DNA of 26,342 nucleotides from a virus (lineage: Duplodnaviria > Heunggongvirae > Uroviricota > Caudoviricetes): positions 1-26,342 of IMG/VR virus record IMGVR_UViG_2850796239_000005. One strand, given 5' to 3'. The notes beneath the pieces are model-generated. The model saw nothing but the letters and a program-made list of their open reading frames with translations, did no database searches and had not been told where the DNA came from. Below are positions 12,460 to 13,178 of this stretch, one piece after another. How positions within the stretch are numbered: the first letter of the stretch is position 1; each line of letters begins with the position of its first letter. The position numbers were made by a program, and so were the translations under genes.

Positions 12460-13178
12460 TCAATCAAAAGTCTCATCATTCCACTGCGACTTTATGACCT
12501 TTCCGACAAACTGGCAGTTTTCGTTACACTCAATCATGTCGAATCGTGGGTTGAGTGGCTCCAGGTACGCTTTACCGCTCTCACGAATGAATCGTTTGAA
12601 GGTGAATTCATCGCCATTCATTCGGGCCACGCAAAAATCGCCATCCTCAATCTCCCGCTCAGGGTCAACGAGTATCAGCATCCCTTCGGGGAAACTGGGT
12701 TTACCACCCTGCGGCGCGGTCATTGAATGCCCCTTGACCTCCAGCCAGAACGACCTGTCACTGGCTTTTGTGGTGGTGGAGATCCACTTAATCGCATCCT
12801 TTGCGGTGTACGAAAAATCATCCATTGAGAAAGCTCCAGCCTGTACGCAGGAGAGTAACGGATATTCGTAATATTTCTCGAACAGGTTACGCCTGTTTCC
12901 CGGTGTGTGGGTACGAATACTGCGTAACAAATCACTCAGATCTGGATTAATTTCTTCCGCAGGAACCTGTAATAAAGCCGCAAACTTAAGGGTATTTTCA
13001 GTATTTAACGCAATTTTTGCGTTCAATAACTGACTAACAGCCCCTGCGTTTTGAAGCCGAGGATATCTGCGGCTTTTTCCTGGCTTAGGGATAGCTGTTT
13101 CCGTTTTTCATCCCAGATTTTGCGCAGTCGTTCAGCGTTCTGGATGTCTTTGTCAGTAATTGTAATTTTCTTCGTCAT
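12460..13178 (-). pseudogene. cI: Lambda-CI-like repressor (HTH plus S24 LexA-type peptidase domain), frameshifted in the interdomain linker as sequenced
   Basis: HTH part: ATG 13178 (GGAGG 5 nt upstream), [45 protein letters not shown], ends at stop 13023. S24 part in the next frame: ...[32 protein letters not shown]...[27 protein letters not shown]... to 12460. Both align with lambda cI as recalled. Junction at plus-strand CCCC 13041-13044; one extra G on the coding strand would restore a ~235-aa repressor. Confidence 0.8.

What the first reader, a model, noticed from the sequence alone, without database searches (positions are those of the whole stretch)
12460..13178. CI repressor split between its HTH domain and S24 peptidase domain by a one-base shift in a G-run
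Both halves align with lambda cI (from memory), but the HTH part stops at 13023 and the S24 part continues in the next frame. Five G rather than four on the coding strand (plus-strand CCCC 13041-13044) would give a normal ~235-aa repressor. As sequenced, only a 51-aa HTH peptide would be made: no cooperative repression and no RecA-mediated cleavage.
Basis: partly seen in the sequence, partly recalled or inferred. Interest (0 to 1): 0.5.

Follow-up and report, generated by a model that had tools for sequence, protein, structure and literature searches.

The report
Repressor frameshift is a sequencing error
The one-base "split" of this prophage repressor gene really is in the deposited sequence, but it is almost certainly a long-read sequencing error in a run of G's, so the gene is an ordinary intact lambda-type repressor and nothing biologically new.

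Summary
On the minus strand, an ATG at 13178 opens a frame that stops at 13023 after 51 codons. A GGGG run lies at 13044-13041, and a complete S24 peptidase domain follows in the next frame down to 12460. Adding one G gives a 239-aa protein that aligns end to end with lambda cI (E = 4e-74).

The biological reading is not supported. The window is 100% identical to CP026875.1, a Shigella chromosome. Its accession falls inside a PacBio-only series that a published paper describes as not corrected with short reads and as having "numerous indels in the homopolymers".

Only four assemblies anywhere carry the 4-G allele, and all four belong to that accession series. Each has a sister assembly from another project that shares its private markers, has few or no SNP differences, and carries 5 G. 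So the allele follows the sequencing project, not the phylogeny.

In sister-pair audits, all 20 one-base G/C-run differences have the PacBio assembly shorter. Control pairs show none in 28.7 kb. The window itself carries four more such deletions, at 3024, 12146, 12365 and 14420.

Verdict: assembly artefact, with an intact cI in a decayed Stx-type prophage remnant. Interest is low.

The parts
12460..13178 (-). cI-type repressor gene (HTH_3 + Peptidase_S24). It is 719 nt as deposited and 720 nt / 239 aa in every assembly outside the PacBio series.
   Evidence: The repaired protein is identical to an existing 239-aa 'LexA family' protein seen on at least 1000 contigs.
13041..13044 (-). GGGG run (plus-strand CCCC) where GGGGG is expected. 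This is the site of the presumed homopolymer under-call.
   Evidence: Eleven assemblies from outside the Kim accession series (eight Shigella assemblies, one Logan contig and two E. coli) have five G here.
13023..13178 (-). 51-codon frame produced by the missing base. It ends inside the HTH, before the recognition helix.
12460..13026 (-). Out-of-frame remainder (188-aa TTG ORF) holding the linker with the Ala-Gly cleavage site (VQAGAF), the Ser (GHSMTAP) and the Lys (FTFKRF) of the S24 dyad. It has no further damage.
   Evidence: and the alignment to lambda cI.
13189..13257 (.). Divergent promoter-like sites between cI and cro: minus strand TTGATA-17-TAAAAT at 13217-13189, and plus strand TTGACA-16-TAATAT at 13230-13257. 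The palindrome TCAAATAGCTAGCCTATTGA (13214-13233) overlaps both -35 hexamers and is a candidate operator.
   Evidence: consensus matches only; function inferred.
13284..13523 (+). cro-like HTH gene (79 aa), intact. This exact allele is named Shigella boydii / S. dysenteriae / MULTISPECIES Shigella by NCBI.
14417..14424 (+). Second G5>G4 shortfall in the window (GCAAGGGGC). It converts a 128-aa ORF into a 175-aa ORF that overlaps the helicase start. Same class of artefact.
12146..12147 (+). CCC>CC shortfall relative to all ten relatives that cover the site. Same class of artefact.
12365..12367 (+). CCCC>CCC shortfall relative to all ten non-Kim relatives that cover the site. Same class of artefact.

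Best explanation
The missing G is a consensus error of an uncorrected PacBio assembly, a one-base under-call in a G/C homopolymer. In the bacterium the gene most likely has five G. It then encodes an intact 239-aa lambda-cI-type repressor: an N-terminal HTH, a linker with an Ala-Gly self-cleavage site, and a C-terminal S24 Ser-Lys peptidase and dimerisation domain. It is transcribed divergently from cro. The gene sits in the immunity region of a heavily decayed, IS-riddled Stx-phage-type prophage remnant in a Shigella chromosome. Shown here: the identity of the window with CP026875.1, the restriction of the 4-G allele to four chromosomes of one accession series, the 5-G state in their sister assemblies, and the one-directional G/C-run deletion bias of those assemblies. 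Inferred: that the four genomes belong to the Kim et al. 2018 PacBio set (from accession ranges), and that the intact repressor still represses PL/PR of the remnant (from family knowledge).
For: (1) Window bases 3023-23178 are 100% identical to CP026875.1. (2) The exact 51-aa product exists on only 4 contigs among about 15 billion proteins: CP026824, CP026845, CP026846 and CP026875. The exact Shigella-type Cro next to it is on 166 contigs. (3) The 4-G allele is absent from 5,426 complete E. coli genomes (16 carriers, all 5 G), from the 23 phage records that hold this stretch, and from GTDB species representatives. (4) Sister pairs are defined by shared private SNPs or indels. Window~AAVDSX010000126: 5,240 bp, 3 mismatches, 4 indels, all with the window shorter in G/C runs. 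CP026846~CP119446: 14,079 bp, 8 mismatches, 2 indels, both C5>C4 with the PacBio assembly shorter. CP026845~JARKNR and AFGE: 8 G/C-run deletions, all with the PacBio assembly shorter. CP026824~CP027027: 12 of 12 with the PacBio assembly shorter. Every sister has 5 G in cI. (5) Control pairs of non-Kim assemblies (JARKNR vs AFGE, CP027027 vs PSSP) cover 28.7 kb with 47 mismatches and 0 G/C-run indels. (6) CP026845 also has private one-base deletions that split the housekeeping genes yfaV and ybhJ. (7) In the window, 0 of 199 A/T runs are shortened against 1/79, 1/25 and 2/6 G/C runs of length 3, 4 and 5. [quoted passage not shown] Accessions attributed to that set run from CP026768 to CP026878. 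(9) Downstream of the shift the S24 part is undamaged and identical to intact alleles.
Against: All four chromosomes carrying the allele show the same 4-G state, which random error alone would rarely produce. It requires a site-specific or length-specific bias. Other G/C 5-runs are indeed shortened in 2-3 of the 4 assemblies, but in 8.25 kb of chromosomal flank none of the 8 G/C 5-runs was shortened in CP026845 or CP026846. No reads were inspected. The sequencing technology of the sister assemblies and the membership of the four accessions in the Kim et al. set are inferred, not read from the records. Real cI knock-outs do exist in this remnant family, for example a Q33 nonsense codon in the Logan assembly of SRR8186699. 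Inactivation is therefore biologically possible.
Confidence: 0.94

Rival explanations
1. A real, inherited frameshift. The repressor was inactivated in an ancestor of these Shigella remnants. Only a non-functional 51-aa peptide, and possibly a free S24 fragment from the internal ATG at 12825 with a GGAG 8 nt upstream, would be made. The remnant would sit in a Cro-dominated 'anti-immune' state, tolerated because Q, the late genes and most morphogenesis genes are gone.
For: The allele is shared by four different chromosomes in which the remnant has decayed differently. The remnant is clearly defective: ninG is truncated, there is no Q, and IS copies interrupt it. cro is intact in all four. A real nonsense knock-out of the same cI allele exists elsewhere. 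G/C 5-runs in the chromosomal flank were not shortened.
Against: The four carriers are not a clade. Each is sister to a 5-G assembly with few or no SNP differences (none in three of the four pairs) and shared private markers, including a 19-bp deletion. A real mutation would therefore need four independent origins, or four reversions, sorted exactly by sequencing project: 4 of 5 Kim-series assemblies against 0 of 9 non-Kim Shigella-allele assemblies. The same assemblies carry many other one-base G/C-run deletions that their sisters lack. No short-contig assembly in the collection yields the 51-aa product.
Confidence: 0.04
2. Phase variation or recoding. The G-run switches between 4 and 5 G by slipped-strand mispairing, or the frame is restored by ribosomal or transcriptional slippage, giving regulated repressor levels.
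For: Both 4-G and 5-G states are seen among closely related sequences.
Against: From established knowledge, a run of 4-5 G is far shorter than known phase-variable or slippage tracts. There is no X XXY YYZ slippery heptamer around ACG CAG GGG CUG. The 4-G state is found only in one project's assemblies and never in the short-contig drafts or the Logan contigs. Equivalent one-base losses occur at many unrelated intergenic and genic G/C runs in the same assemblies.
Confidence: 0.02

Closest known systems
Bacteriophage lambda cI repressor (PDB 3BDN, full length; 1F39/2HO0 C-terminal domain; 1LMB N-terminal domain)
   Same: The repaired 239-aa protein aligns over residues 2-238 with 3BDN (E = 4.3e-74). 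The architecture is the same (HTH_3 + Peptidase_S24). The VQAG|AF cleavage-site motif, the Ser in G(H/N)SMTAP and the Lys in EFTFK(R/K) are conserved. The assignment to Ala111-Gly112, Ser149 and Lys192 of lambda comes from established knowledge. The gene is transcribed divergently from cro.
   Different: The N-terminal DNA-binding domain is much more diverged than the C-terminal domain (45 bits against about 200 bits), so a different operator specificity and immunity type is expected. The deposited sequence lacks one G.
cI of Stx-converting short-tailed phages (Sepvirinae, e.g. Escherichia phage Lyz12581Vzw, Stx2a phages LC6454xx; proteins WP_000162429.1 / WP_000162431.1)
   Same: 97-98% nucleotide identity across cI-cro, with the same neighbours (cro-like HTH, helicase, primase). 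The repaired protein is identical to the cI of E. coli strains 48 and JNEC-KY204.
   Different: Here the phage is a remnant in Shigella. It lacks Q, stx and most structural genes, and carries IS600-like, IS629-like and IS2-like insertions.
Homopolymer indel errors of uncorrected PacBio RS-era assemblies (Kim et al. 2018 Shigella set, as described in PMC8795385)
   Same: One-base deletions restricted to G/C runs, always shorter in the PacBio assembly. They create apparent frameshifts in otherwise intact genes, including housekeeping genes.
   Different: Nothing of note. This site is shortened in 4 of the 5 assemblies of the series that carry the locus, which is unusually reproducible.

Membership tests
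Lambda cI / LexA-like S24 autocleavable repressors | N-terminal helix-turn-helix DNA-binding domain | tested here: met
   HTH_3 at residues 24-77 of the repaired protein, E = 3.4e-7, above the gathering score. It aligns with the lambda N-terminal domain 1LMB, E = 6e-11. In the deposited 4-G sequence only profile positions 3-24 of 55 remain, which is below threshold.
Lambda cI / LexA-like S24 autocleavable repressors | C-terminal Peptidase_S24 domain with Ser-Lys dyad | tested here: met
   PF00717, E = 1.7e-28, full profile 1-116. The Ser in GHSMTAP and the Lys in FTFKRF align with the lambda residues.
Lambda cI / LexA-like S24 autocleavable repressors | Ala-Gly self-cleavage site in the linker | tested here: met
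   VQAGAF aligns with lambda VQAGMF.
Lambda cI / LexA-like S24 autocleavable repressors | RecA-stimulated autocleavage and operator binding | not testable with these tools
   This needs biochemistry or an induction assay.
Lambdoid immunity region | Divergent cI and cro with promoters and operators between them | tested here: met
   cro-like HTH gene at 13284-13523 on the opposite strand. There are divergent sigma-70-like sites and a 20-bp palindrome at 13214-13233. Only one operator-like palindrome was found, and its function is inferred.
Genuine frameshift pseudogene | The lesion is inherited, so its distribution follows phylogeny and is seen regardless of sequencing method | tested here: not met
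   The four carriers are each sister to 5-G assemblies from other projects. The 51-aa product is absent from all other contigs in the collection.
Long-read homopolymer assembly artefact | One-directional length errors in homopolymers, present genome-wide in the same assemblies and absent from independent assemblies of close relatives | tested here: met
   All 20 G/C-run differences have the PacBio assembly shorter, against 0 in 28.7 kb of control pairs. There are five such sites in the window. Housekeeping genes are split in CP026845. A published statement describes the data set this way.
Long-read homopolymer assembly artefact | Reads of the same strain from an accurate platform show the longer run | not testable with these tools
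   There is no read access. The closest proxy is draft AAVDSX010000126: 3 mismatches in 5,240 bp, with 5 G.
Programmed ribosomal frameshift / phase-variable tract | Slippery heptamer or long (at least about 8 nt) homopolymer tract | tested here: not met
   The sequence ACGCAGGGGCTG has a 4-nt run and no X XXY YYZ motif.

The most novel reading that the evidence does not exclude
The 4-G allele is real in these historical Shigella strains. The G-tract then acts as a mutational or phase switch that turns off the repressor of a domesticated prophage remnant. This would leave the remnant in a Cro-locked state in which kilR, gam, hicAB and the helicase/primase genes are expressed differently.
Probability: 0.03. 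Interest if true: 0.4.

Novelty: not a real feature. Interest (0 to 1): 0.05.

Why it matters
It matters mainly as quality control. This window, and the accession series it comes from, carries roughly one spurious one-base deletion per 3 kb in G/C runs. Any 'frameshifted gene' flagged in it, such as cI here or the ORF before the helicase at 14420, should be treated as an artefact until it is checked against independent assemblies. Biologically, the locus is an ordinary intact lambda-type repressor retained in a decayed Stx-type prophage remnant of Shigella.

Tried and rejected
(a) Exact-pattern scan of GTDB species representatives for the 4-G 40-mer found 0 hits.

(b) I used the window's truncated Rha (171 aa, TGG>TAG at 10182) as a lineage marker to find short-read assemblies of the same clone. 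It is found only in CP026875.1 itself, so it was uninformative.

(c) The Logan contigs that carry the exact 188-aa downstream ORF were first taken as independent 4-G evidence. They turned out to have 5 G plus other lesions: Q33 stop in one, and a one-base loss in an A-run in the other.

(d) The uniform-error model looked doubtful when 8.25 kb of chromosomal flank showed no shortened G/C runs in CP026845 or CP026846. The sister-pair audits resolved this.

(e) A conservation argument (no SNPs in cI among the four chromosomes) was dropped. Outside three hypervariable patches, SNP density is too low for this to be significant: about 2 expected in 720 bp.

(f) I tried to read Kim et al. 2018 (doi 10.1128/genomeA.00282-18, PMC5897796) and to find the four accessions in papers. 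The paper is not held and there were no hits. Membership of the set is therefore inferred from the accession range.

(g) Recoding and phase variation were considered and rejected on sequence grounds.

Full report
1. THE OBSERVATION

On the minus strand, an ATG at 13178 starts a frame that reads [51 protein letters not shown] and stops at 13025-13023. The run GGGG occupies 13044-13041. The next frame continues ...[17 protein letters not shown]... through a complete S24 domain to the stop at 12462-12460.

Inserting one G gives a 720-nt ORF of 239 codons. Pfam places HTH_3 at residues 24-77 and Peptidase_S24 at 107-229 of the repaired protein. The 51-aa product keeps only positions 3-24 of the 55-position HTH profile, so it is cut before the recognition helix.

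The repaired protein aligns over residues 2-238 with full-length lambda repressor 3BDN (E = 4.3e-74). The VQAG|AF cleavage motif, the Ser of GHSMTAP and the Lys of FTFKRF are conserved.

2. WHERE THE WINDOW COMES FROM AND WHAT SURROUNDS THE GENE

The cI-cro region is 97-98% identical to Stx-converting phages and prophages of E. coli. There the gene is an intact 720-nt 'LexA family protein' / cI, and all five relatives I aligned have GGGGG.

The window as a whole is a decayed prophage with these parts:
- a lambda-type integrase at the left edge;
- ORF6N antirepressor-like genes;
- IS2-like and IS629-like elements;
- Ead/Ea22, a YqaJ exonuclease, RecT, Gam, KilR and Rha;
- hicAB;
- cI and cro;
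- a DEAD-box helicase and a primase;
- a ninG gene cut at about 17654, with no Q or stx;
- holin, lysozyme and Rz;
- terminase and portal, inverted between two inverted 1,266-bp IS600-like copies;
- a tail-fibre fragment.

The window is 100% identical over 20,156 bp to CP026875.1. NCBI names the exact Cro and HicB alleles as Shigella boydii, S. dysenteriae or MULTISPECIES Shigella.

3. IS THE 4-G ALLELE SEEN ELSEWHERE?

It is not found in any of these:
- 5,426 complete E. coli genomes (16 carriers of this stretch, all with the one-base gap relative to the window);
- the 23 phage records that hold this stretch;
- GTDB species representatives.

In the 15-billion-protein collection, the exact 51-aa product occurs on only four contigs, all complete chromosomes: CP026824, CP026845, CP026846 and CP026875. 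At first sight, four strains with differently decayed remnants sharing the allele argues for a real, inherited mutation.

4. WHY IT IS NEVERTHELESS AN ARTEFACT

(a) Among these four chromosomes, almost all one-base indels in the remnant are deletions in G or C runs of 3-5. Some of them are distributed incompatibly with the SNP tree.

(b) The exact Shigella-type Cro, 240 bp from the G-run, is on 166 contigs. Of the places displayed, only the four chromosomes above have a split cI. The following all have an intact 239-aa gene: CP026836, AAVDSX010000126, AKNA01000038, AMJQ01000062, CP119446, JARKNR010000001, CP027027, AFGE01000023 and PSSP01000001.

(c) Shared private markers pair each 4-G chromosome with a 5-G assembly from another project.
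- The window pairs with AAVDSX. They share 12127T, 13737T and 13866T. Over 5,240 bp there are 3 mismatches and 4 indels, all with the window shorter in G/C runs.
- CP026845 pairs with JARKNR and AFGE. They share a 19-bp deletion.
- CP026846 pairs with CP119446. Over 14,079 bp there are 8 mismatches and two indels, both C5>C4 and both shorter in the PacBio assembly. One of them is the cI run.
- CP026824 pairs with CP027027. Over 9,447 bp there are 5 mismatches and 12 indels, all shorter in the PacBio assembly.

The allele therefore follows the accession series and not the phylogeny.

(d) The bias is completely one-directional. All 20 G/C-run differences have the PacBio assembly shorter. Two control pairs of non-series assemblies (28.7 kb, 47 mismatches) have no G/C-run indel.

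(e) CP026845 also has private one-base deletions that split the housekeeping genes yfaV and ybhJ.

(f) The window carries four more such losses, at 3024, 12146, 12365 and 14420. The last is another G5>G4. It turns a 128-aa ORF into a 175-aa ORF running into the helicase start. In the window, no A/T run out of 199 is shortened, against 1/79, 1/25 and 2/6 G/C runs of length 3, 4 and 5.

(g) PMC8795385 states that the closed PacBio Shigella genomes of Kim et al. [quoted passage not shown] Accessions attributed to that set span CP026768 to CP026878, which brackets all four carriers.

5. RESIDUAL DOUBT

- No reads were examined.
- The same error in four of the five series assemblies that carry the locus implies a strong site or length bias. 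Yet G/C 5-runs in 8.25 kb of chromosomal flank were not shortened in two of these assemblies.
- The sequencing technology of the sister assemblies is inferred, as is the membership of the four accessions in the Kim et al. set.
- Real cI knock-outs do exist in this family. The Logan assembly of SRR8186699 has the same allele with 5 G but CAG>TAG at codon 33. The Logan assembly of DRR275259 has a one-base loss in an A-run.

I put the artefact at about 0.94, a real inherited frameshift at about 0.04, and phase variation or recoding at about 0.02. The last has neither a slippery motif nor a long tract to support it.

6. WHAT IS REALLY THERE AND HOW IT WORKS

What is there is an intact lambda-cI-type repressor. 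From the anatomy and from established knowledge of the family, I infer the following. It binds operators in the 105-bp cI-cro spacer, where there are divergent sigma-70-like sites at 13217-13189 (minus strand) and 13230-13257 (plus strand), with a 20-bp palindrome at 13214-13233. It represses the early operons of the remnant, which include kilR, gam and recT leftward and cro, helicase and primase rightward. It would be inactivated by RecA-stimulated self-cleavage at Ala-Gly. None of this is new.

7. VERDICT

This is not a real feature, and interest is low. The useful outcome is a warning about G/C-run frameshifts throughout this window.

Noticed in passing
window 14417-14424: A second G5>G4 shortfall. 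The ORF starting at 14050 reads 175 aa into the helicase start, instead of the 128 aa seen in six independent relatives. Adding one G restores the 128-aa form.
   Followed up: yes
window 3024, 12146, 12365: One-base losses in C runs (C4>C3, C3>C2, C4>C3) relative to the non-Kim relatives that cover each site. They are the same artefact class as the cI site. The one at 3024 rests on a single relative (PSSP).
   Followed up: yes
window 11144-11183, 13835-13906, 14007-14062: Three short intergenic patches with very dense, largely strain-private substitutions (13, 9 and 12 variable sites). Surrounding DNA has about 0.1% divergence. The patches also vary in draft assemblies and in E. coli relatives, so they look real. 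The cause is unknown (local hypermutability, gene conversion, or selection on regulatory sites).
   Followed up: partly
window 10181-10183 (minus strand): rha ends at TAG where the three other Kim-series chromosomes that cover the site have C at 10182 (TGG on the coding strand). This splits a 296-300-aa Rha into 171 + 77 aa. The exact 171-aa product is found only in CP026875.1, so it may be a private nonsense mutation or a base error.
   Followed up: partly
L010 (Logan SRR8186699) position equivalent to window 13082; L011 (Logan DRR275259) equivalent to 13100: Apparent real inactivations of the same repressor in other samples. One is CAG>TAG at codon 33 on the Shigella-type allele with 5 G. 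The other is a one-base loss in an A-run on a different allele.
   Followed up: partly
window 17349-18273 and 19932-25739: The prophage is a remnant. ninG is truncated at about 17654 and no Q antiterminator or stx genes precede the holin. Terminase and portal (21184-24338) lie inverted between two inverted, almost identical 1,266-bp IS600-like copies (19932-21197 and 24474-25739), which suggests an IS-mediated inversion.
   Followed up: partly
window 11460-12055: A hicA/hicB toxin-antitoxin pair sits between cI and rha, on the opposite strand to cI. It is conserved intact in all Shigella remnants examined.
   Followed up: no
window 5372-6258: The IS629-like orfB is split (118-aa and 222-aa ORFs; 206 aa as called). 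The same truncated call appears in the non-Kim relatives CP027027 and PSSP, so unlike the cI shift this looks like a real lesion.
   Followed up: partly
window 14190: GGG in the window against GG in CP119446, JARKNR and AFGE as well as CP026845/CP026846. Here the shorter run is shared by assemblies from inside and outside the Kim accession series, so it is a real lineage marker. Not every homopolymer difference is an error.
   Followed up: yes
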